Assembly: GCA_028713935.1 (NCBI GenBank) | Contig: JAQTNI010000036.1 | Coordinates: 1-13,924 of the forward strand | DNA length: 13,924 bases | Direction: 5' to 3' | Source of the DNA: Candidatus Iainarchaeum sp. | Lineage (GTDB): Archaea; Iainarchaeota; Iainarchaeia; Iainarchaeales; GCA-2688035 | Part shown: one piece after another, positions 618-13,924 of the stretch | Numbering within the stretch: the first letter of the stretch is position 1 | Layout of the letters: every line of letters begins with the position of its first letter | The notes under the pieces: model-generated | Databases searched by the model: none | The model's input: only the letters and a program-made list of their open reading frames with translations | What the model was told of the DNA's origin: nothing | Translations under genes and position numbers: made by a program

Positions 618-621
618 AAAT

Positions 622-706
622 CGCAGGGAGAGGGATTTGAACCCTCGTGCCCATAGGGCACACCGTCTCGAGCGGTGCGCTTTAAACCAAGCTCAGCCAT
701 CCCTGC
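622..706 (-). tRNA. tRNA-Ser (anticodon CGA)
   Basis: The reverse complement folds as a cloverleaf. Acceptor GCAGGGA/TCCCTGC. Anticodon stem CACCG/CGGTG with loop CTCGAGA. Long variable arm GCCC-TAT-GGGC. T arm GAGGG-TTCAAAT-CCCTC. Discriminator G. No encoded CCA. A T7/A7 TATA-like run lies about 25-31 nt upstream (731-737). Confidence 0.9.
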
Positions 707-763
707 AGCAAAAGAATTAGGATTAATGCTTTTTTTAACTCTTTAGGGAGACTTGGAAAATAA

Positions 764-832: not shown

Positions 833-850
833 CCAGATTCCCATTACATT

Positions 851-922
851 TGGACTCGCCGGGAATCGGACCCGGAGTCTCATGCATGCCATGCATGCGT
901 CATACCATTAGACCACGAGCCC
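851..922 (-). tRNA. tRNA-Ala (anticodon GGC), with an unusual T-loop
   Basis: The reverse complement gives acceptor GGGCTCG/CGAGTCC with the G3:U70 Ala identity pair. D arm GTCTAATGGTATGAC. Anticodon stem CATGC/GCATG with loop ATGGCAT. T arm CCGGG-TCCGATT-CCCGG. Discriminator A. A TATA-like TTTTAAATG lies about 27 nt upstream. T-loop position 55 reads C, not the near-universal U. Confidence 0.75.
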
Positions 923-976
923 ATTACTGATTTAATTTGCTTGAAACATTTAAAACCTGTTCGGCTTCAGAAAAAG

Positions 977-3530: not shown

Positions 3531-3683
3531 AAAGCATCGCCGTTATTATGTTTAATACTAAAATGAACAATCAAAAATTATTTAAAACAATTAACAAGGA
3601 GATTTGTTTTTCAAGAAGATTTTTAAACACAATTTGTTTAATTCATATAAATAATATTGAAAATTAATTTTTTGGGTGTTTTT
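3531..3683. promoter_or_regulatory. Divergent A/T-rich promoter region (minus-strand operon and aIF5A)
   Basis: TATAAATA at 3646-3653 lies 31-38 nt before the aIF5A ATG. ttattat at 3543-3549 (ATAATAA on the minus strand) lies 25-31 nt before the NYN ATG. No ORF is present. Confidence 0.4.
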
Positions 3684-4094
3684 ATGGCTGAAATCGCAGA
3701 AGGGGAAAAAAAATTTGATTTTATTGGCTCGCTAAAACCGGGCAACTATGTGCTTATTGACAGTGCTGTCTGCCAGATAAAGGGAATTGAAAAATCCAAG
3801 CCTGGAAAGCATGGCGCTGCAAAAGCAAGAATAACTGCTTTTGACATTTTTACTGGCTCAAAAAAGACATTGCTAAAGCCAACAAGTGCTGATGCGGAAA
3901 TCCCGATTATAATAAAGGGAAACGCACAGGTAGTTGCAATAATGGGTGACAATTTGCAAATAATGGATTTGAACAGCTATGAAATGATGAGTGTGAAAAA
4001 ACCCTCTGACATCCAGGGGCTTGCTTCCGGAATAGAAGTGGAATACATCAAATACGGCCCCAATGTGAAAATCCTGCACAAAAAAGGCGCTTAA
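3684..4094 (+). CDS. eif5a: Translation initiation factor 5A (aIF5A)
   Basis: Hypusine-loop motif SKPGKHGAAKARI. N-terminal SH3-like plus C-terminal OB-like layout, 136 aa from ATG 3684. The tracked start at 3657 is an upstream TTG. Confidence 0.9.
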   Translation: MAEIAEGEKKFDFIGSLKPGNYVLIDSAVCQIKGIEKSKPGKHGAAKARITAFDIFTGSKKTLLKPTSADAEIPIIIKGNAQVVAIMGDNLQIMDLNSYEMMSVKKPSDIQGLASGIEVEYIKYGPNVKILHKKGA

Positions 4095-5163: not shown

Positions 5164-5230
5164 AAAAACCCGCCTTTCTTTTCTTTTTTCTTTTTTAAAA
5201 TTGCTTAAAATTCGTTTTCTTTGGGCAACA

Positions 5231-5298
5231 GCCTTTTCTTGGAAAGAAAAGCCTGGGGAAAAGAACAATTTGCTTCGCAAATTGGTTGCTTTGCAAAA
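5231..5298 (+). repeat. Composite palindromic repeat, copy B
   Basis: gcc-ttttctt-gga-aagaaaa-gcc-tggggaaaagaa-caatttgc-ttc-gcaaattg-gttgctttgcaaaag. It matches the reverse complement of 7628-7685 module for module. Confidence 0.7.
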
Positions 5299-5317
5299 GA
5301 GCCGAAAAGCGAAAAAA

Positions 5318-5513
5318 TTAGGTGTTTATCAAAAGTCCAGGATTCTTTTCTTTTGGGGCAACTTAGGCGTTTGTTTATCCAAAATTCAGGTTTTTCTCTT
5401 TTGGCAAATTTTGAGCTTGTTTATCATACAATTTGGGATTTCTTTCTTTTGGCAATCATTTTCTTTTGGGCAATCTGTTTATCAAAAGTTTAGAGTTTCT
5501 TTCTTTGGGCACC
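5318..5513 (+). repeat. Degenerate tandem array (~49-bp period): GTTTATC(A/C)AAA box plus TTTCTTTTGG(G)CAA box
   Basis: GTTTATC occurs at 5324, 5373, 5419 and 5477. TTTGG(G)(G)CA(A/C) boxes end near 5227, 5361, 5407, 5455, 5474 and 5511. The units are imperfect. Confidence 0.75.
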
Positions 5514-5518
5514 TTGCA

Positions 5519-5560
5519 CTTTCTTTCTTTTTAAAAGAAAGAAAGGGCAGTTTTTTATAT
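5519..5560 (+). promoter_or_regulatory. Perfect hairpin (ctttctttc/gaaagaaag) followed by TTTTTTATAT
   Basis: A 9-bp G/C-punctuated stem (5519-5527 / 5537-5545) is extendable through T/A pairs. T6+ATAT at 5551-5560 lies 23-32 nt before ATG 5583. It is therefore either a terminator for an upstream transcript or the TATA box of a leaderless gene. Confidence 0.4.
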
Positions 5561-5582
5561 TTCTTAATTCTTTATTGTAATT

Positions 5583-6911
5583 ATGCCTAATAAGAAAAAA
5601 ATCCTGCTTGACGGAATCAAAAAGCTTTTGGCTTTGAAGGTTCCTGAAGAAGAAATTATTGCCAATTTAAAGGATGTCGGGATTGGAGAAAAACAGGCAA
5701 AGGCATTGATTGATGAAGTCAGGCTTGGAAAAAAAGAAGAATTGCCAGAAGAGGAAGGCAGTGAATTTGAGCCGGAAGAAAAAAAAATTGAAGACAGCGA
5801 AAGCTTTGGGGAAGAAGGCGCTTCGGAAGAAGATGCCCAGGCAGAAGCCCTGGAAAAAAATTATCCAGAAGAAGAGAAAACTCCGGAAATGAACAAGGAA
5901 GAAACTGTGGAAGAAACAGAGAATCTTGCAGAAGAAGAAACACAGGGCATTTCTAAAAAGGAAATTGAGGACAATGGCTTTGAAGAAAAAGAAGAGGAAA
6001 CAATGGAAGGCAGTGAAACTGAAGCAGGCGAACCTGAAGAAGAAGGCGGAGAAATTCAGGAAGAAATTGAAGAGGAAGAAGCAGAGGTCCCTGAAGAGGA
6101 AAAAGAAGGCACTGGGTTTTCGGAAGCCAAAGAGGACAGGGCTGAAGAAAAAAGTTTTTCAAATAAAAAAAAGCTCGCAAGGGAAGAAAAGGCTGACAAT
6201 GCTGATTTTGAAAAGCTCTGGGAAAAGGGAATTCTGACAATTGTTAACCAGAGATTGCAGGAAATGAAAGGAATTCAGGGAGAAATAGAGTCCGAATTGG
6301 GCAAGAGGGCGTCTGAAATTGCAAAAAAGGAAATTGACAAGGTTAATGTTTTGTTTGAAAGCCAGAGAGACCTGGCTGTTGAAACAATGAATGCAAAGCT
6401 TGGGCAGAAAACAAAGGAAATTGACAAGATGCTTGACGCAAAGGTCCTTGAACTAAAAGAAATTTCAAAATCAGTAAAGGGAGACATTTCAAAGCTGGAA
6501 AAATTGCAGCAGTCACAGAAAGAAGGGTTGGAGCAGATTAATGAACGGCTCGCGGGGCTTGATGAAGCAAAAAAAACCCTGATTGTGGAAATGAATTCCG
6601 ACCTGATAAAATCAAAAAGCGAAATTGAGGAATTTTTGTCTTCTTCTTCCAAAAAAGTCCAGGAAATTGAAGCGAGGGTGAATGAAACCCTTGAATTGGA
6701 ATCAAACATTGTTGACAGCCTTGTAAAAGAAACAGAAGCAAAACTGGCTTCTTCCCAGTCAGGAAGGGAAAACGCCTCTGCAAAAAAATTTGAAGAAGCA
6801 CTTGATGCACTTGGAATTGCAAGGCAGGGCTTTGAACAGCAGGCAAGGGAAAAATTATTGGAAATTGACAGGCAATTGAAACTATTGAAAAAACAGCCTG
6901 TGCAAAAATAA
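5583..6911 (+). CDS. Acidic (poly-Glu) low-complexity plus coiled-coil protein, function unknown
   Basis: 442 aa. It has a ~50-aa helical N-terminal domain (ILLDGIKKLLALKVPEEEIIANLKDVGIGEKQAKALIDEV). A ~170-aa Glu-rich region follows. The last ~230 aa carry a heptad-like coiled coil. Confidence 0.7.
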   Translation: MPNKKKILLDGIKKLLALKVPEEEIIANLKDVGIGEKQAKALIDEVRLGKKEELPEEEGSEFEPEEKKIEDSESFGEEGASEEDAQAEALEKNYPEEEKTPEMNKEETVEETENLAEEETQGISKKEIEDNGFEEKEEETMEGSETEAGEPEEEGGEIQEEIEEEEAEVPEEEKEGTGFSEAKEDRAEEKSFSNKKKLAREEKADNADFEKLWEKGILTIVNQRLQEMKGIQGEIESELGKRASEIAKKEIDKVNVLFESQRDLAVETMNAKLGQKTKEIDKMLDAKVLELKEISKSVKGDISKLEKLQQSQKEGLEQINERLAGLDEAKKTLIVEMNSDLIKSKSEIEEFLSSSSKKVQEIEARVNETLELESNIVDSLVKETEAKLASSQSGRENASAKKFEEALDALGIARQGFEQQAREKLLEIDRQLKLLKKQPVQK

Positions 6912-6982
6912 GGCTTAAAGCCAATGGAACAATATTTGGGAACTGGTTCACGCAAATGTAATCAAGAAACAGGTGAAGAAAA

Positions 6983-7594
6983 ATGAGTGGCCCAATATTT
7001 GTTGGCGCAGCCCATATTGTTGAAGACAATAAGGAAAAACCATTAACAGCCAGAATAATAGCGCTAATTAGTTCGAAAGGAAAACCAAGCAAGACTTTAT
7101 TTATTGAAGGCGAAAAAGGTGGAATAGAAGCAGGCAGTAGCTATGCTACTGCAATAAAAACTGCAGAACAACGCGGAATGCGCATTGTATGCCTAGACTT
7201 GCCAAAACTTACTCGCTCACTTAGGGAAAAGATACTTCAACATACAGACGCGCAAGTTCAAAGTTTTATCATGGGCCAGCCGCACAGACCTGACAATCTG
7301 CTAACACTCGAAATTGGGTACATGATGTACAATGTCAGGGAACGTGAGTGGAAACGAAAAATAAAATTTGCCGTAGAGGGAGACGTTGTTCTGATGCACT
7401 CCAGCCACTTGGAACGATTTTTGAGAACTATTCCAGGAAATAAAGATGTTCGATACCTTTCTCCAATAGAACCAAGACCACTCGAACTCTCGCCAGCCCA
7501 AATAGAGGAATTAAGAAGGTTGAGAAAATCGCGGCGAATACAACAAGGCCCTAAGAAACCAGGAATTGCCAAAAGACAACCGAGACGCAAATAG
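6983..7594 (+). CDS. Hypothetical protein with basic C-terminal tail and atypical codon usage
   Basis: 203 aa. AGGTGA lies 6 nt upstream of the ATG. I counted 25 CG dinucleotides in 612 nt by hand and many CGN Arg codons. The motifs VGAAH...FIEGEKG...VLMHSSH are loosely reminiscent of the TraB/TIKI/ChaN GxxH...E...H superfamily (weak). Confidence 0.6.
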   Translation: MSGPIFVGAAHIVEDNKEKPLTARIIALISSKGKPSKTLFIEGEKGGIEAGSSYATAIKTAEQRGMRIVCLDLPKLTRSLREKILQHTDAQVQSFIMGQPHRPDNLLTLEIGYMMYNVREREWKRKIKFAVEGDVVLMHSSHLERFLRTIPGNKDVRYLSPIEPRPLELSPAQIEELRRLRKSRRIQQGPKKPGIAKRQPRRK

Positions 7595-7691: not shown

Positions 7692-7783
7692 AATACTTTC
7701 TTTTTAATTAATCATTATCTGCTAAATTTCTTAATTAAGCGAATTTTTGGTTTTTTAAGGTTCAATTGAAATATGTGGTTTTT

Positions 7784-8542
7784 ATGGGTTTGAGGCCGGG
7801 ACATTGTTACAGCGACCCAAGCAGGGACAGGCCTTACACGAGAGTGGCAATTACTGTGCCAAAAAAGAATTTTATTGGAGCAACTCCTGGCTTGAAAACA
7901 AGGCAGTTTAACATGGGAAACCCTGTAAAAAAATTCACTCACATTGCAGACCTTGTTGTGGAAGAAAATGTCCAGATAAGGGACAATGCAATTGAATCAG
8001 TAAGAATCTCAATAAACAGGTTTTTGAACAACAAAATTGGCAAAGAAAATTATTTCATGCGCATAAGAATTTACCCTTTTCACATTCTCCGCGAAAACAA
8101 GCAGGCACAGGGAGCCCATGCAGACAGAATCCAGAAAGGGATGAGCCATGCATTCGGAAAGCCGATTGGCAGGGCAGCAAGAATAAGGGCAGGGCAGACA
8201 ATAATGAGCATTCTTATTGACGAAATTCACATTCCTTTTGCAAAACAAGCCCTTTTGAGGGCACGGGCAAAAATGCCTGCAAGGCTAAGCGTTACAATAG
8301 GCACTGATGTTGAAAGCATTGGCACAAGGCCAAAAGTAGTGAAAGAAATCACTGCGGAAGAAATTGCTGCACAGGAAGCAGCAGGAAAAGCAAAGGAAAG
8401 CAAAAAAGAAGGCAAAGAAGCAAAAACAGAAGCAGGAACAGAAACAAAGAAAGAAGAAGCAAAGCCAGCAGCAGGAACAGGAAAAGCACCAGCAGGCGGA
8501 AAAGCAGCGGAAACAACAAAAAAAGAAGAAAAGAAAAAATAA
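7784..8542 (+). CDS. rpl10e: Ribosomal protein L10e (uL16) with ~70-aa Lys/Glu/Ala-rich C-terminal extension
   Basis: MGLRPGHCY...RPYTR...FNMGN...QIRDNAIESVRISINRF...YPFHILRENKQAQGAHADRIQKGMSHAFGKPIGRAARI matches the L10e family. The true start is ATG 7784. The tracked start at 7766 is a TTG. Confidence 0.9.
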   Translation: MGLRPGHCYSDPSRDRPYTRVAITVPKKNFIGATPGLKTRQFNMGNPVKKFTHIADLVVEENVQIRDNAIESVRISINRFLNNKIGKENYFMRIRIYPFHILRENKQAQGAHADRIQKGMSHAFGKPIGRAARIRAGQTIMSILIDEIHIPFAKQALLRARAKMPARLSVTIGTDVESIGTRPKVVKEITAEEIAAQEAAGKAKESKKEGKEAKTEAGTETKKEEAKPAAGTGKAPAGGKAAETTKKEEKKK

Positions 8543-8752: not shown

Positions 8753-8872
8753 ATGGCTGTACCAAAAAGAAGACCAAGCATAGCGCAATTAAAATCAAAC
8801 CTTAGAGAACATCTTATAAAGAAACAAAGGGAGAACATGCGAAAACGGTTGCTTGCCAAAAGACCCCGCTGA
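8753..8872 (+). CDS. Small basic protein (39 aa), unassigned and absent from the ORF track
   Basis: ATG 8753 lies 7 nt after GGAGG (8741-8745). Translation: MAVPKRRPSIAQLKSNLREHLIKKQRENMRKRLLAKRPR, stop TGA 8870-8872. Confidence 0.45.
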   Translation: MAVPKRRPSIAQLKSNLREHLIKKQRENMRKRLLAKRPR

Positions 8873-9007: not shown

Positions 9008-12000
9008 ATGCCTTACAGGACTGTTTTGTGGTTCAATGAAATTTCTGCTGGCAATATTGGCATTGTTGGCGGAAAAGGCCTGAATCTTGGCTTAATGACA
9101 AACGCTGGATTTCCAATTCCTCCAGGCTTTGTTGTTACTGCACAGGCATATTTTGATTTTTTGGAGCAGTCAGGCATTAAAAGAAAAATTGTCCAGGAAA
9201 TAGATGCAATTGATTCAGAAAATACAAGGCAATTGGAAACTGTTTCTGAAAAAATAAGGTCTCTCATCAGGACTGCAAAAATGCCTCCTGAAATTGCCAA
9301 TGAAATCAAAAAAAATTATTTGAAATTAAGCGAAAGAAGAATTGGGTTTATTTCAAGCAGCGAGGAAAGCTTTGTTGCAGTGAGAAGCAGTGCAACTGCA
9401 GAAGACCTGCCCAGCATTTCTGAAAACGAGCATGTGCTTGTAAAAATAAATGGAAAACCGAGTTATCAAAAAATTGGGGCTTTGTATGAAAAAGTCTCGG
9501 ATGGTTCTGGTTATGAAATAGAAGTTCCTGGCATGAAGGAAAACAAGATTGCTTGGTTGAAAGTAAAAAGCTTGTTCAGGCACAAGGCGGATAAAAACAT
9601 ATTATTCAAAATAAAAACGAACACAGGCAGAGAAATAATTGTTTCCCCAAACCACAGTTTGATAAAACTTAATGAAGAAGAACTAATCCCGGAAACAGTT
9701 GGAATTTCAGAAATCAAAAAAGGAAGCAAACTGCCTGTAACTGCATTTGTTCCGGAAATCAATTGTACTGAAAAAATCAGTGTTTTGGATTTTGTAAAAG
9801 GAAAAGAAGTTACAGAAAGCAACAGCAGAATAATGATTAAGAACAATTCTTCAAACTGGAAAATACAAAACAGCCTGCCAAAAGAAATTGCCATCACAGA
9901 AGAATTCGCCTATTTCTTAGGGCAATATGTTGCAGAAGGATCTACTTACAAAAATAACTCGGTTTCAATAACAAACACGAACCACAAAATTTTGGCAAAA
10001 ATAGAAAACACATTAAGGAAATTGGGAGTTTACAAAGAGGCTAAAATTAACAAGCATTCAGTCAGGGCCTATTGCCCTTCGCTTGTAAGGTTTATGCATG
10101 AAACCTGTGGCAGGCCATTGGAAAATAAAAAAGGAAAAGGCAAATTGTGTTACACAAAAGGAGTTCCTGATTTTGTTTTTGGGCTGAGCAAAAAAAACAT
10201 TGGGGCTTTTTTAAGAGGCTGTTTTGATGGAGATGGCACAATAGGCAAAAGCGAAGTTTCGTATTCTACTGTTTCTGAAATGCTTGCGGGCGGCATAATA
10301 AAACTTTTGGAAATTCTTGGAATTAATGTGTATATCCGCAGTAAAAATTGCTTTGTAATATCAATTCCTCTGGGCGAAACTGAAAAGTTTTCTGAACTTG
10401 TTGGTTTTGAAGATGAAAACAAGGGGGCAAAATTGAAAAAAGCCCTGCAAGATTATGGGGCAAGAAAAAAGCACCCTGAATTCAAATACGGCTTGAACAT
10501 TTCAGAAAAGCTTGCGGAGAAAATAATGGCAAAAGCACAAAGCAATTTGCCAAAAGAGCTTGTTGAAGAGCAGTTCTGCAAAAATTGCGGCAAAAAAACA
10601 GAGCAAACAAGTTATTACAAGGGAAAAAAAAGATTTTTCTGCCAGAATTGCAAAAAAACCTTTTACGAAGAAAATATTGACTGTAAGCAAACAGAAAAAT
10701 ATGTTTATTATGATAACGAAGGGCATTTTGCCAAAGGAATTGTTCCCTGGAATTATGCTCACATGCAAGGAAAGCAAAGCTTAAACGAATTAAAAAGAAA
10801 ATCTCGACAATATGGCTTGGATAATTTTTTCAAGATTCTTGAAGGCAATGTAAAATGGGACGAAGTAAAAGAAATATTGCCGGTAAAATACGATGGTTGG
10901 GTTTATGATTTTGTTGTACCTGAAGAAGAAAATTTTGCAGCAGGCTTGGGAGGCATAATTACACATAACTCTGCAAGCTTTGCCGGGCAGCAGGAAACTT
11001 ATCTGAATGTCCAGGGAAAAGACAAGGTTGTTGAGGCAGTCCAGAAATGCTGGGCAAGCCTTTTCACTGCAAGGGCTGTTTATTACAGGAGAAAACAAAA
11101 TTTTTCAACTGAAAAGGTTGGAATTGCAGTTGTTGTCCAGAAAATGATTGAAAGCACTGCTTCGGGAATAATGTTCACTGCCGACCCTACAGGAGATGAA
11201 ACAAAAATAATCATTGAAGCGGGTTTTGGGCTTGGAGAGGCAATTGTAAGCGGTTCAATTACTCCTGACAATTATGTGATTGACAAGAATTCAATGAGCA
11301 TTGTTGAAAAAAGAATCAATTTTCAGGAATGGAAGCTTGTTAAAAGGGGAAAAGAAAATTTCAAGCAGATGCTGACAGAAACAGAGGGCAGGAAGCAAAA
11401 GCTTGAGGATTCAGCAATTTTGCAGTATGCAAGGATTGGAATGCATATTGAAAATTATTACAAAAAGCCCCAGGACATTGAGTTTGCAATGGAAGGAAAA
11501 GAATTGTTTATTGTGCAAAGCAGGGCAATAACCACTCTCGGCCTGAAGGAAAAGGAAGGAGTGGAAAAAGACAGGAAAGAAAAATTAAAGGCAGTAAATG
11601 CAAAAATTCTTGTTTCAGGTTTGGGGGCAAGCCCGGGAATTGTTTCAGGCAGGGTAAGAATAGTGCCGAATGTTGAGGATGTTGAAAAAGTGGAAAAAGG
11701 AGACATTCTTGTTACAAAAATGACTTCTCCTGACTGGGTTCCGACAATGAAAAAAAGCATTGCAATTGTAACAGATGCAGGCGGAAAAACATGCTTTGCT
11801 GGAAACACAAAAGTTTTGACAAACAAAGGGATAATACAGTTTGAAGAATTATTCAACAGAGCTGAAGAAGGGGAAAGTTTTTTTGCATTATCCTTGAACA
11901 AAAGAACTCTGAAGCCAGAGTGGAAAAAAATAAATGCCTGCCTGAAAAGAAAGGCAAAAACAATAAAAATTGCGGTTTCGCAAACAGGGAAAGCTAATGA

Positions 12001-13924
12001 AAATTGCCTTGAACTTACGCCGAGTCACAAAATGATGCATCTGGAAAATAGGCAAATAATTGAAAAAGAAATCAAAGAAATTATGGATGCAGGAGAACTC
12101 GTTTGTTCAATCGATTCTATTCCTGTTGTTTCTGATGCAAGCGAAAGCAACATGAAAAAGGCGTATTTAATGGGCGCAATATTCACTGATGGTCACATGC
12201 GCTTGAATAAAAGGCGTGGATTGGTTGGATTTATCCAAAAAGCCACTCCTGAAAAAAAAGAATTTATTGGGGCGGTTGTTAGTTATTTCAAAGATTTGTT
12301 CAATGTTGAATTGAAAGCGAAAGAAAGAACTTATACTTCAACAATAAGGGGGCATACATTCACAAGCACTGCAATGTATTACACTTGCCCGCAAAAAGCA
12401 CCTGCCGCGAATATGCTTGAAAGCTATGAGGCCATTGAAGAATGGGTTTTGAGAACAGATGAAGAAAACCTGTTGATGTTTTTAGCAGGCGTAATTGACG
12501 GCGATGGAAGCTTCAACAAAAACCACGGCTGTAGGCTGCACATTTATTCAAGCGACGAAAAACTTACAAAAGCTATTGTGCTCGGATGCCTGCGCTTGGG
12601 AATTCAGCCGACCTTGCAGAAAAACAGGGAAACTTGCTTGAATATCCAAATTGTGGAAGAATTGGAAAAATTGTTAAAATATACAAAAAGAGTAAAGTTT
12701 AATCCAAGGGAAAAAAAACAGGGGGTAAAATTGTTTTCAGCAAAGCAATTGCTTTTGGACATTGTCAATGAGGTAAATTGGGGCGGAATAATAAAGCCTT
12801 ATGTTGAGAAGAATTTGCTTATTGATTCCAAAAAGGTTTTGGAAAGAATTGTGCCAATGGCAAAAAAAGAGGTTCAGGCAGAATTGGAAAAAATTTGTAA
12901 CAGCCCAGTTAGAATGAAGCGCGCAGTGCACTTGGAAGATTGTGAAGAAACTGATGTTTTCAATATTGAAGTTGATGAGTACCACAATTATGTTGTTTTC
13001 ACAGAGCAATTCACTCCTTTGTGGGTTGCAAATTGCCATGCGGCAATCATATCCAGGGAACTGGGAATTCCGTGTGTTGTGGGAACAGGAAAGGCAACTG
13101 AAATTCTTGAGGATAATGAAACAGTCACTGTCAATGGCTTTGACGGAGTTGTGTACCAAGGAAAAGTTGAAATTGCTGCTCCGGAAAGTGCAGAAGATCA
13201 TGCCCCTGTTTTTGAAAAAAAAGAAGTTGATGCAATTGAAAAAATAATGGCAAAAGAAATCAAGAAGGCAGACAATGAAAAGAAAAAAGGAAAGCCGGAA
13301 GAAAAGCCATTTGAAAAGGAAAAGAAAATTTCGGAACTTGAAGATGAAGAAGAAAAAGGTGTTGCGGAAGAATTAAGGGAAGAAGTTGTTGAGCATGCAA
13401 GAAACGAGGTAGAAGAAATTCTTGAAGAGTATGGCGATAAAAAAGCCGAAAAAATGCCTGAAAAAGAGCTTGGCGAAGAAGAGGAAAAAATTGCGGGTGT
13501 TTTGAGAAAAACAGCTGTAAAGGTAAAAGTGAATGTTGCATTGCCTGATGCAGCGGAGTCTGCTGCAAAAACAAGTGCGGACGGAGTCGGATTGTTAAGG
13601 GCAGAGCATATGATTACTGCAGAGGGAAAGCATCCTGCGGAGTATATCCGCGAAGGCAAGCAGGAAGAACTGGTTGCTGTTGTAAAAGAGGGAATAAAAA
13701 AAGTTGCTGTTTTGTTCAAAGGCAAGCCTGTCTGGTACAGGACTTTTGATGCAAGGACAGACGAATTCAGGCATTTGGAAGGCGGAGAAAAAGAGCCTGA
13801 AGAGGACAATCCAATGATTGGATGGCACGGCATAAGAAGAGACCTGGATGAGCCTGAGCTTTTGAAGGCACAGTTTTTTGCAATTAAGCAATTGCTGGAA
13901 GAGGGAATTGACAATATTGGAATA
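9008..13924 (+). CDS. ppsA: Phosphoenolpyruvate synthase (pyruvate, water dikinase), 3'-partial, interrupted by two inteins
   Basis: I hand-translated frame 2 from ATG 9008 and found 1639 sense codons with no stop. Extein motifs: VLWFNEIS..IGIVGGKGLNLG, VAVRSSATAEDLP/SASFAGQQETYLNV, MFTADP, PQDIEFA, TSPDW, IVTDAGGKT/CHAAIISRELGIPCVVG, DGVGLLRAEHMI, NPMIGWHGIRR. Confidence 0.9.
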   Translation, partial: MPYRTVLWFNEISAGNIGIVGGKGLNLGLMTNAGFPIPPGFVVTAQAYFDFLEQSGIKRKIVQEIDAIDSENTRQLETVSEKIRSLIRTAKMPPEIANEIKKNYLKLSERRIGFISSSEESFVAVRSSATAEDLPSISENEHVLVKINGKPSYQKIGALYEKVSDGSGYEIEVPGMKENKIAWLKVKSLFRHKADKNILFKIKTNTGREIIVSPNHSLIKLNEEELIPETVGISEIKKGSKLPVTAFVPEINCTEKISVLDFVKGKEVTESNSRIMIKNNSSNWKIQNSLPKEIAITEEFAYFLGQYVAEGSTYKNNSVSITNTNHKILAKIENTLRKLGVYKEAKINKHSVRAYCPSLVRFMHETCGRPLENKKGKGKLCYTKGVPDFVFGLSKKNIGAFLRGCFDGDGTIGKSEVSYSTVSEMLAGGIIKLLEILGINVYIRSKNCFVISIPLGETEKFSELVGFEDENKGAKLKKALQDYGARKKHPEFKYGLNISEKLAEKIMAKAQSNLPKELVEEQFCKNCGKKTEQTSYYKGKKRFFCQNCKKTFYEENIDCKQTEKYVYYDNEGHFAKGIVPWNYAHMQGKQSLNELKRKSRQYGLDNFFKILEGNVKWDEVKEILPVKYDGWVYDFVVPEEENFAAGLGGIITHNSASFAGQQETYLNVQGKDKVVEAVQKCWASLFTARAVYYRRKQNFSTEKVGIAVVVQKMIESTASGIMFTADPTGDETKIIIEAGFGLGEAIVSGSITPDNYVIDKNSMSIVEKRINFQEWKLVKRGKENFKQMLTETEGRKQKLEDSAILQYARIGMHIENYYKKPQDIEFAMEGKELFIVQSRAITTLGLKEKEGVEKDRKEKLKAVNAKILVSGLGASPGIVSGRVRIVPNVEDVEKVEKGDILVTKMTSPDWVPTMKKSIAIVTDAGGKTCFAGNTKVLTNKGIIQFEELFNRAEEGESFFALSLNKRTLKPEWKKINACLKRKAKTIKIAVSQTGKANENCLELTPSHKMMHLENRQIIEKEIKEIMDAGELVCSIDSIPVVSDASESNMKKAYLMGAIFTDGHMRLNKRRGLVGFIQKATPEKKEFIGAVVSYFKDLFNVELKAKERTYTSTIRGHTFTSTAMYYTCPQKAPAANMLESYEAIEEWVLRTDEENLLMFLAGVIDGDGSFNKNHGCRLHIYSSDEKLTKAIVLGCLRLGIQPTLQKNRETCLNIQIVEELEKLLKYTKRVKFNPREKKQGVKLFSAKQLLLDIVNEVNWGGIIKPYVEKNLLIDSKKVLERIVPMAKKEVQAELEKICNSPVRMKRAVHLEDCEETDVFNIEVDEYHNYVVFTEQFTPLWVANCHAAIISRELGIPCVVGTGKATEILEDNETVTVNGFDGVVYQGKVEIAAPESAEDHAPVFEKKEVDAIEKIMAKEIKKADNEKKKGKPEEKPFEKEKKISELEDEEEKGVAEELREEVVEHARNEVEEILEEYGDKKAEKMPEKELGEEEEKIAGVLRKTAVKVKVNVALPDAAESAAKTSADGVGLLRAEHMITAEGKHPAEYIREGKQEELVAVVKEGIKKVAVLFKGKPVWYRTFDARTDEFRHLEGGEKEPEEDNPMIGWHGIRRDLDEPELLKAQFFAIKQLLEEGIDNIGI
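9413..10969 (+). mobile_element. Intein 1 (519 aa) with LAGLIDADG homing-endonuclease domain and extra CxxC-x17-CxxC module
   Basis: It starts at Ser (SISENEHVLV, block A). Block B is GREIIVSPNHSL. LAGLIDADG motifs are FLGQYVAEGS and FLRGCFDGDGT. Blocks F/G are GWVYDFVVPEEENFAAGLGGIITHN, followed by +1 Ser. Removing it restores AEDLP-SASFAGQQ. Confidence 0.85.
11792..13033 (+). mobile_element. Intein 2 (414 aa) with LAGLIDADG homing-endonuclease domain, inserted before the catalytic Cys-His
   Basis: It starts CFAGNTKVLT (block A). Block B is LELTPSHKMM. LAGLIDADG motifs are YLMGAIFTDGH and FLAGVIDGDGS. Block F is DVFNIEVDEYHNYVV. It ends LWVAN, followed by +1 Cys of CHAAIISRE. Confidence 0.85.

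What the first reader, a model, noticed from the sequence alone, without database searches (positions are those of the whole stretch)
9413..10969. Intein 1 is inserted in the ATP-grasp [13 protein letters not shown] motif with Ser1/Ser+1, possibly an uncatalogued insertion site
The junctions are ...[23 protein letters not shown]... and ...[21 protein letters not shown]. Excision regenerates the canonical [18 protein letters not shown](E/D)T(F/Y)LNV nucleotide-binding motif.

The element uses Ser rather than Cys at both nucleophile positions and is large (519 aa). Both of its LAGLIDADG acidic residues appear intact (YVAEGS, FDGDGT), so the homing endonuclease may still be active.

The only PEP-synthase intein I can recall is the one in Methanocaldococcus PpsA. 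I believe, without being able to verify it, that it corresponds to the second site in this gene and not to this one.
Basis: partly seen in the sequence, partly recalled or inferred. Interest (0 to 1): 0.7.

Follow-up and report, generated by a model that had tools for sequence, protein, structure and literature searches.

The report
Unannotated but widespread PEP-synthase intein
This is a real, intact self-splicing intein with a homing endonuclease, sitting in the ATP-binding motif of an archaeal PEP synthase gene; it is an ordinary kind of element, and the same insertion is present, unlabelled, in dozens of public archaeal genomes.

Summary
Window 9413-10969 (+) encodes a 519-aa class-1 intein (Ser1 ... 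His-Asn | Ser+1) with a two-motif LAGLIDADG endonuclease. It lies inside a PEP synthase gene (9008->13924). Removing it restores [27 protein letters not shown], which aligns without a gap to solved PEP synthases.

The insertion lies between the equivalents of Arg117 and Thr136 of RPH-Lm, the two residues that hold the ADP alpha-phosphate.

The site is not unique to this genome. Forty-three GTDB species genomes carry a homologous intein there, mostly DPANN archaea plus a haloarchaeal clade; both junctions could be read in 40 of them. About 20 clusters at 50% identity carry it too. The catalytic residues are invariant or nearly so across the family.

The family also includes mini-intein derivatives and a natural intein-free allele that equals the in-silico spliced product.

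Source annotations never call it an intein. The only PEPS intein site I found in the literature is GG[TRM]T/CHAA, which is the second intein of this gene.

So this is a new member of a known kind: apparently undescribed in print, but already abundant in sequence databases. A conserved C4 zinc ribbon inside the intein is the one unusual feature.

The parts
9008..13924 (+). Host gene: phosphoenolpyruvate synthase (PpsA / pyruvate, water dikinase), interrupted by two inteins and cut off by the window end
   Evidence: Open frame with ATG at 9008 and no stop to 13924. Pfam PPDK_N 9e-96, PEP-utilizers, PEP-utilizers_C. NCBIfam NF005057 PEP synthase equivalog, 636 bits against a cutoff of 598. The N-terminus aligns from residue 1 with PDB 8a8e.
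9008..9412 (+). N-extein (135 aa), ending ...[13 protein letters not shown]
9413..10969 (+). Intein 1: 519-aa class-1 intein with a LAGLIDADG homing endonuclease (the finding)
   Evidence: AlphaFold model pLDDT 80.6. Best Foldseek hits are TliVMA intein 7qss (E 9e-24), PI-PfuI 1dq3 and PI-PkoII 2cw7.
9413..9415 (+). Ser1 codon (AGC), the N-terminal splicing nucleophile (block A)
   Evidence: Ser in 40/40 allelic inteins.
9644..9655 (+). Block B, S-P-N-H (the TxxH equivalent). His81 is invariant
   Evidence: His 40/40; first position Ser 30, Thr 9, Ala 1
9926..9943 (+). LAGLIDADG motif 1 (YVAEGS); catalytic Glu175
   Evidence: Glu in 38/40; coordinates
10223..10240 (+). LAGLIDADG motif 2 (FDGDGT); catalytic Asp274
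   Evidence: Asp in 40/40; coordinates
10577..10651 (+). C4 zinc-ribbon-like module (CxxC-x17-CxxC; Cys389, 392, 410, 413), lying between the endonuclease domain and the C-terminal splicing domain
   Evidence: All four Cys are conserved in 38/38 copies that keep the segment. Pfam gives only sub-threshold zinc-ribbon hits. The model predicts beta-strands 381-430 at pLDDT about 81-86. The module is absent from non-allelic relatives.
10901..10918 (+). Block F (VYDFVV)
   Evidence: Y498, D499 and F500 are 40/40
10961..10969 (+). Block G, Thr-His-Asn: penultimate His518 and terminal Asn519
   Evidence: T, H and N are each 40/40
10970..10972 (+). Ser+1 codon (TCT), the first residue of the C-extein and the second nucleophile
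   Evidence: Ser or Thr at +1 in all 40 alleles whose C-terminal junction could be read. Glu at this position in the natural empty allele P0177.
10970..11791 (+). Middle extein: the rest of the ATP-grasp domain and the phosphohistidine domain up to GGKT
11792..13033 (+). Intein 2 (414 aa, Cys1 ... Ala-Asn | Cys+1) at the phosphohistidine motif GGKT|CHAA, the published PEPS intein site
   Evidence: PMC10710043. Only distantly related to intein 1: 24% over 206 aa, E 4e-5.
13034..13924 (+). C-extein (partial): end of the His domain, an E/K-rich linker and the start of the PEP-binding domain

Best explanation
Window 9413-10969 is a canonical class-1 intein carrying a monomeric two-motif LAGLIDADG homing endonuclease. 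It is inserted in frame in the ATP-grasp nucleotide-binding motif of an archaeal (Iainarchaeum-like, DPANN) PEP synthase.

Inferred mechanism of splicing. The precursor is enzymatically dead because the intein separates the two alpha-phosphate-binding residues. Splicing would go by the standard four steps: an N-O acyl shift at Ser1; transesterification to the hydroxyl of Ser+1; succinimide formation by Asn519, helped by His518; and an O-N shift that leaves ...[13 protein letters not shown]....

Inferred mechanism of spread. The free intein is a site-specific endonuclease that cuts intein-less ppsA alleles across the junction sequence. Repair then copies in the intein together with the +1 Ser/Thr codon. 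A conserved C4 zinc ribbon probably adds DNA-binding contacts.

What is shown: the anatomy, the conservation, the allele's distribution, presence/absence polymorphism and decay to mini-inteins. What is inferred: that splicing and DNA cleavage actually occur.
For: - Sequence and domains.
- Fold: model pLDDT 80.6. Top PDB matches are intein-homing endonucleases 7qss, 1dq3 and 2cw7; I-DmoI matches the nuclease core.
- Excision restores the host: the spliced product aligns without a gap to PDB PEP synthases through the junction.
- Position in the active site: the insertion falls between RPH-Lm Pro126 and His127. That is between Arg117 and Thr136, which bind the ADP alpha-phosphate (PMC4844700).
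- Allele family: 43 GTDB species loci carry a homologous intein at the identical site; in 40 of them both junctions were read and the inteins aligned.
- Conservation at 31-78% pairwise identity: Ser1, His81, Asp274 and Thr-His-Asn are 40/40; Glu175 is 38/40.
- Purifying selection: intein dN/dS is about 0.15 against L001.
- Mobility, point 1: P0177 (770 aa) is a natural intein-free allele. It is 95% identical to in-silico spliced P0179 and the same length, with Glu instead of Ser at +1.
- Mobility, point 2: against L001 the exteins are 92% identical (dS 0.53-0.64) but the inteins only 68% (dS 1.6). The intein is no closer to L001 than to L022, whose extein is only 61% identical.
- Mobility, point 3: mini-inteins of 162 and 259 aa occupy the same site.
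Against: - No experiment shows that this copy splices or cuts DNA.
- dS of 1.6 is close to saturation, so the intein/extein discordance is suggestive rather than proof.
- The block B Thr is replaced by Ser. This is conservative and is the majority state in the family.
- The last 12 residues of the model have low confidence (pLDDT below 50).
- The zinc ribbon's role is inferred only from Cys conservation and sub-threshold Pfam hits.
Confidence: 0.88

Rival explanations
1. The intein still splices, but its endonuclease is no longer active in this lineage. It is inherited vertically as a harmless passenger, late in the homing cycle.
For: Mini-intein derivatives at this site show that the family does lose its endonuclease. 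Nuclease activity cannot be read from sequence. The allele may be fixed in the Iainarchaeum-like clade, since L001 also has it.
Against: Both catalytic acidic residues, the conserved Lys242 and the zinc-ribbon Cys residues are intact here and near-invariant across 40 diverged copies. dN/dS is about 0.15 over the whole intein. Intein dS is 2.5-3 times extein dS against the nearest relative.
Confidence: 0.25
2. The insertion is a dead, non-splicing remnant and this ppsA is a pseudogene.
For: None positive. The gene carries two large insertions and its end lies outside the window.
Against: There are 1,639 in-frame codons without a stop. All splicing residues are intact. The exteins are 92% identical to L001 with dN/dS of about 0.07-0.19.
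Confidence: 0.03
3. The intein acts as a conditional switch. PpsA is made only when conditions allow splicing, which would give post-translational control of gluconeogenesis.
For: The insertion sits in the catalytic ATP-binding loop, so an unspliced precursor must be inactive. Two inteins in one enzyme would multiply any such gating.
Against: Location in conserved active-site motifs is the general rule for inteins and is explained by homing-site conservation. The Ser1/Ser+1 chemistry rules out the known disulfide/redox traps. A closely related natural allele works without the intein. Nothing here tests conditionality.
Confidence: 0.08
4. One reading: an intein insertion site new to databases, perhaps unique to this genome.
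For: No paper found describes it. The source names never mention an intein. NCBIfam has no intein-containing PEP synthase model among the hits.
Against: The same allele occurs in 43 GTDB species genomes, in about 20 clusters at 50% identity, and in NCBI nr entries such as MBD3263295.1, MDP3919115.1 and RLI97358.1. The precomputed Pfam annotation of those proteins already lists Intein_splicing and LAGLIDADG_3.
Confidence: 0.05

Closest known systems
Archaeal LAGLIDADG intein-homing endonucleases with solved structures: TliVMA/PhoVMA inteins (7qss, 7qst), PI-PfuI (1dq3), PI-PkoII (2cw7)
   Same: HINT splicing domain split by a two-motif LAGLIDADG nuclease domain. Best structural matches have E 9e-24 to 2e-20. 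PI-PkoII is also the best sequence match in the PDB.
   Different: Different host gene and site. Sequence identity is only 14-19%. Ser1/Ser+1 are the nucleophiles here. A conserved C4 zinc ribbon lies after the nuclease domain and was not seen in the non-allelic relatives checked.
The published prokaryotic PEPS intein allele at GG[TRM]T/CHAA (PMC10710043); from my own memory this is the InBase 'Mja PEP' intein
   Same: Same host enzyme. That allele is present in this very gene as intein 2 (11792-13033).
   Different: Different site (phosphohistidine motif rather than ATP-grasp motif). It uses Cys1/Cys+1, not Ser1/Ser+1. It is only distantly related: 24% over 206 aa of the nuclease domain. Most genes that carry intein 1 have site 2 empty.
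Inteins of archaeal RNA polymerase subunit A'' and a MoxR-like ATPase (nearest non-allelic sequence relatives)
   Same: Best non-PpsA hits: P0008 at 29% over the full length and P0009-P0012 at 25-30%. NCBIfam PRK14898 RpoA'' E 6e-45 over intein residues 34-368.
   Different: Different exteins and insertion sites, and no zinc ribbon.

Membership tests
Class-1 intein (HINT domain, standard four-step splicing) | Ser/Cys (or Thr) nucleophile as first intein residue | tested here: met
   Ser1, codon AGC at 9413-9415; 40/40 in the family
Class-1 intein (HINT domain, standard four-step splicing) | Block B TxxH with the conserved His | tested here: met
   S78-P-N-H81. His is 40/40; first position is Ser 30, Thr 9, Ala 1
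Class-1 intein (HINT domain, standard four-step splicing) | C-terminal His-Asn, followed by a Ser/Thr/Cys at +1 | tested here: met
   T517-H518-N519 | S. H and N are 40/40; +1 is Ser or Thr in all 40 alleles with a readable C-terminal junction
Class-1 intein (HINT domain, standard four-step splicing) | HINT fold / profile match | tested here: met
   Pfam PF14890 E 1.9e-19; TIGR01445; Foldseek hits to solved inteins
Class-1 intein (HINT domain, standard four-step splicing) | In-frame insertion whose precise removal restores the conserved host sequence | tested here: met
   Gapless alignment to 8a8e/9dae/5fbs across the junction. The natural empty allele P0177 has the same length as spliced P0179
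Class-1 intein (HINT domain, standard four-step splicing) | Protein splicing actually takes place | not testable with these tools
   Needs an expression/splicing assay with S1A, N519A and S+1A controls
LAGLIDADG homing endonuclease (monomeric, two motifs) | Two LAGLIDADG motifs, each ending in a catalytic Asp/Glu | tested here: met
   YVAEG (Glu175) and FDGDG (Asp274); PF14528 E 3e-16
LAGLIDADG homing endonuclease (monomeric, two motifs) | alpha-beta-beta-alpha-beta-beta-alpha nuclease fold | tested here: met
   Foldseek matches to I-DmoI and I-Tsp061I, TM (target-normalised) 0.64-0.70 over about 195 columns
LAGLIDADG homing endonuclease (monomeric, two motifs) | Cleaves the intein-less allele and is mobile | tested here: inconclusive
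   Indirect support only: an intein+/intein- polymorphism at 95% extein identity, intein/extein dS discordance and spread across DPANN and haloarchaea. Cleavage itself is not testable here
Known PEPS intein allele (GG[TRM]T/CHAA) | Same insertion site in the host protein (the allelic rule) | tested here: not met
   Intein 1 sits at AEDLP|SASF, which is 274 extein residues upstream. Intein 2 (11792-13033) does meet this criterion
Known PEPS intein allele (GG[TRM]T/CHAA) | Close sequence relationship to other members of the allele | tested here: not met
   24% identity over 206 aa to the co-resident site-2 intein. Relatives of intein 2 (P0164-P0171) are a separate set

The most novel reading that the evidence does not exclude
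This could be the first recognised example of a PpsA 'site a' intein allele family that has never been described in print. It lies in the ATP-grasp phosphate-binding loop, always uses Ser1, and carries a family-specific C4 zinc ribbon added to the LAGLIDADG nuclease. It appears to be still homing among DPANN archaea and, as a separate clade, haloarchaea. If so, it would serve as a gene-flow marker in lineages where few such markers exist, and as a natural example of a zinc-ribbon-assisted LAGLIDADG enzyme.
Probability: 0.45. Interest if true: 0.4.

Novelty: new member of a known kind. Interest (0 to 1): 0.3.

Why it matters
There are three modest reasons.

1. It adds a second, independent intein site to PEP synthase, a central-metabolism enzyme rather than the usual replication or repair host. 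It also shows that automated annotation misses the intein: the proteins are labelled hypothetical or plain PEP synthase, and some gene calls are split.

2. The family shows the whole homing cycle in public data: empty alleles, full inteins, and degenerate and mini forms. It spans DPANN archaea and haloarchaea, so it could help trace gene flow.

3. The Ser1/Ser+1 chemistry and the conserved zinc ribbon next to a LAGLIDADG nuclease may interest protein engineers who want inteins with non-cysteine nucleophiles, or nucleases with an extra DNA-binding module.

None of this changes how inteins are understood.

Tried and rejected
- The literature was searched ten times: intein with phosphoenolpyruvate synthase, synthetase, PpsA, PEPS, water dikinase, DPANN and MJ0542, plus allele names. 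Only PMC10710043 mentions a PEPS intein site, and it is site 2.
- Novikova 2016 (PMC4760082) does not mention PEP synthase in its main text, and its supplements are not held.
- The Soucy 2014 haloarchaeal survey lists no PpsA allele.
- The InBase papers PMC146560 and PMC99080 are not held.
- The first genome scan, with the single protein as query, found nothing. The alignment-based scan succeeded.
- A search with intein 2 did not recover a Methanocaldococcus protein, so the M. jannaschii site was not verified directly.
- Recent intragenic duplication of intein 2 into site 1 is rejected: 24% identity, in the nuclease domain only.
- Pseudogene is rejected: the frame is open and all catalytic residues are present.
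- Pfam gives no significant family for the zinc ribbon, only sub-threshold hits to many zinc-ribbon models.
- The small ORF at 8753-8872 and the ORFs at 5201-7594 gave no family match.
Full report
**1. What is in the sequence**

The reading frame that contains 9413 is open from 8987 to the end of the window, with an ATG at 9008. Its product (at least 1,639 aa) matches PPDK_N (E 9e-96), the PEP-utilizers mobile domain and PEP-utilizers_C. It also matches Intein_splicing, LAGLIDADG_3 and Hom_end, each twice. NCBIfam places the host in the PEP synthase equivalog NF005057, with 636 bits against a cutoff of 598.

The segment 9413-10969 translates to 519 residues without a stop: [10 protein letters not shown]...GLGGIITHN.

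A second insertion at 11792-13033 (414 aa) reads CFAGNTK...LWVAN and is followed by CHAAI. It splits the phosphohistidine motif GGKT|CHAA.

The neighbouring genes are archaeal: aIF5A, DUF2226 and L10e. The extein is 92% identical to that of a Candidatus Iainarchaeum MAG, L001. The window therefore comes from a DPANN archaeon.

**2. It is a complete class-1 intein with a LAGLIDADG nuclease**

All the standard blocks are present:
- Ser1.
- Block B, S-P-N-H81.
- Two LAGLIDADG motifs, YVAEG (Glu175) and FDGDG (Asp274).
- Block F, VYDF.
- Block G, T-H518-N519, followed by Ser+1.

An AlphaFold model built on six allelic sequences has pLDDT 80.6 and pTM 0.78. Its best PDB matches are intein-homing endonucleases: TliVMA 7qss (E 9e-24), PI-PfuI 1dq3 and PI-PkoII 2cw7. 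The nuclease core matches I-DmoI. PI-PkoII is also the best sequence match in the PDB.

**3. Excision restores the enzyme**

With both inteins removed in silico, the 706-aa product aligns collinearly with the solved PEP synthases 8a8e and 9dae. The stretch [21 protein letters not shown](E/D)TYL is uninterrupted.

In the numbering of Listeria RPH (5fbs), the motif is R117-SSATAEDLP126-H127-ASFAGQHD-T136. Arg117 and Thr136 contact the alpha-phosphate of ADP, and mutating either one abolishes resistance (PMC4844700).

The intein therefore sits between the two phosphate-binding residues of the ATP-grasp domain. By inference, an unspliced precursor cannot be active.

**4. The same allele is common in public data**

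*Protein search.* Seven clusters carry PPDK_N plus this intein at 45-57% identity. Every junction present in these, some of them partial, sequences is the same.

*Genome scan.* An alignment-based scan of one genome per GTDB species returned 43 loci at 34-68% identity, all inserted after the conserved (A/T)EDL(P/E) motif and beginning S[IV]. In the 40 whose C-terminal junction was also read, it is ...THN|[ST]xSFAG. The other three are L034 and L040, which are cut off by the contig end, and L037, whose C-terminal junction was not identified; L042 lost the frame (see section 9).

The hosts are:
- Iainarchaeum, Woese-, Pace-, Nano-, Aenigmat- and Micrarchaeota.
- A separate clade of haloarchaeal MAGs: Natronomonas, Haloarculaceae, Natrialbaceae, Halovenus and Haloferacaceae.
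- A few bins with bacterial or Methanosarcinales labels. At least one of these, L002 ('Falkowbacteria'), is archaeal by gene content and is syntenic with the window (L10e-ppsA-diphthamide synthase).

*Exhaustive HMMER search of 1.84 billion representatives.* This gave 34 hits at E<=1e-30, of which about 20 clusters at 50% identity carry the allele.

*Conservation.* Forty full copies have a mean pairwise identity of 45%. Ser1, His81, Asp274, Tyr498-Asp499-Phe500 and Thr-His-Asn are 40/40. Glu175 is 38/40.

*Relation to site 2.* Most of these genes have site 2 empty. Among the 43 loci, only the window and L015 were found to carry both inteins; one further protein from the representative search, P0022, also does.

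**5. Evidence that the element is or was mobile**

(a) *A natural empty allele.* P0177 (770 aa, MAG45763.1, Nanoarchaeota 'phosphoenolpyruvate synthase') falls in the same 90% cluster as the intein-bearing P0003 and P0179. Removing the 518-aa intein from P0179 gives a 770-aa protein that is 95% identical to P0177. The +1 residue is Glu in the empty allele and Ser in the occupied one. This fits co-conversion of the +1 codon during homing. That position (x in DLPxASF) varies among PEP synthases: E, H or S.

(b) *Intein and extein histories disagree.* Between the window and L001 the exteins have dS 0.53-0.64 and dN 0.05-0.10. The inteins have dS 1.6 and dN 0.25. The window's intein is as close to L022 (67%), whose extein is only 61% identical, as it is to L001 (68%). 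dS of 1.6 is near saturation, so this is suggestive only.

(c) *Decay products.* Derivatives of 162 aa (P0030) and 259 aa (P0033) sit at the same site. So do 416-422-aa haloarchaeal copies that lack the zinc-ribbon segment.

Intein dN/dS of about 0.15 indicates purifying selection on the intein protein itself.

**6. An unusual detail: a zinc ribbon**

Between the nuclease domain and block F lies CxxC-x17-CxxC (Cys389, 392, 410, 413; window 10577-10651). It is followed by a conserved G-x-F-x-K-G-x-x-P-W-N stretch.
- The four Cys are present in all 38 copies that keep the segment.
- The model predicts a small beta-rich module there.
- Pfam gives only sub-threshold zinc-ribbon hits, the best being Zn_ribbon_Nudix at E 1e-3.
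- Non-allelic relatives from the MoxR-like ATPase, RpoA'' and RadA lack it. A few unrelated inteins carry a different zinc ribbon with an IS1-like 'QRYxCxxC' motif.

I infer an auxiliary DNA-binding role. This is not tested.

**7. Comparison with what is known**

The only PEPS intein site I found in the literature is GG[TRM]T/CHAA (PMC10710043). M. jannaschii itself was not verified.

Intein 1 shares only 24% identity with intein 2, over 206 aa of the nuclease domain. It fails the allelic criterion for that family.

No paper available to me describes the ATP-grasp site. InBase could not be read. Source names for the homologues never mention an intein, although the precomputed Pfam domains do.

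**8. Verdict**

The element is an ordinary class-1 LAGLIDADG intein. 'Ser at both nucleophile positions' is correct but not exceptional.

The claim of a possibly uncatalogued site survives only as 'apparently not described in print and not annotated'. The allele itself is widespread in public genomes. I rate it a new member of a known kind, with interest about 0.3.

**9. Other points**

- L001, the closest relative, has site 2 empty but keeps Cys at +1 (GGSTCHAA). So do ten other loci. This may be a footprint of earlier occupancy.
- A 113-aa Glu/Lys-rich linker (13169-13507) separates the His domain from the PEP-binding domain, in the window and in L001.
- L042 starts with a normal N-junction but loses the frame. 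I did not follow this up.

Noticed in passing
window 11792-13033 (+): A second intein (414 aa, Cys1...Asn|Cys+1, LAGLIDADG) lies in the same gene at the phosphohistidine motif GGKT|CHAA, the published PEPS site. The nearest relative L001 (extein 92% identical) lacks it. Among the 43 loci only L015 was found to share the double-intein state; one further protein from the representative search, P0022, also does.
   Followed up: partly
L001 and ten other loci (L002, L003, L008, L012, L013, L017, L022, L036, L039 and others), PpsA site 2: Many intein-free site-2 alleles read GGxT-C-HAA (Cys at +1) instead of the usual GGxT-S-HAA. This may be a footprint of a lost site-2 intein, or a pre-adapted target.
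   Followed up: no
window 10577-10651 (+), inside intein 1: A C4 zinc-ribbon-like module (CxxC-x17-CxxC) followed by a conserved ...KGxxPWN stretch. All four Cys are kept in 38/38 allelic copies. It is absent from the non-allelic relatives checked and deleted in two shorter haloarchaeal copies (L038, L041).
   Followed up: partly
window 13169-13507 (+): A 113-aa Glu/Lys-rich low-complexity linker (30% E, 18% K) lies between the phosphohistidine domain and the PEP-binding domain of PpsA. It is also present in L001. No counterpart was seen in the N-terminal parts of the solved PEP synthases that were aligned.
   Followed up: no
P0177 versus P0179/P0003 (Nanoarchaeota; MAG45763.1): A natural intein-minus/intein-plus pair of the same PpsA: 95% extein identity, and the same length after in-silico excision. 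The +1 residue is Glu in the empty allele and Ser in the occupied one.
   Followed up: yes
P0030 (162-aa insert) and P0033 (259-aa insert): Mini and degenerate inteins at the same AEDLP|SASF site. The endonuclease and zinc ribbon are lost, but the splicing blocks are kept.
   Followed up: partly
L002, L004, L009, L021, L025, L037: Contigs carrying the allele sit in bins labelled Falkowbacteria, Staskawiczbacteria, Methanosarcinales or Gammaproteobacteria. L002 is clearly archaeal (L10e, diphthamide synthase) and syntenic with the window, so it is probably mis-binned. L004 (GAPDH, class II aldolase, PfkB) remains ambiguous.
   Followed up: partly
L042:6001-7594: This locus has a normal N-junction (AEDLP|SIGKDEF...), but the tblastn frame then fills with stop codons. 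It could be a frameshift, a decayed copy or an assembly error.
   Followed up: no
window 8753-8872 (+): A short 39-codon ORF just upstream of ppsA begins MAVPKRRPS... and is very basic. It has no Pfam match and may not be a gene.
   Followed up: partly
window 621-707 (-) and 850-923 (-); 7766-8542 (+); 3657-4094 (+): tRNA-Ser(CGA) and tRNA-Ala(GGC); ribosomal protein L10e directly upstream of ppsA (the same order as in L002); aIF5A. Several ORFs between 5201 and 7594 have no family match.
   Followed up: partly
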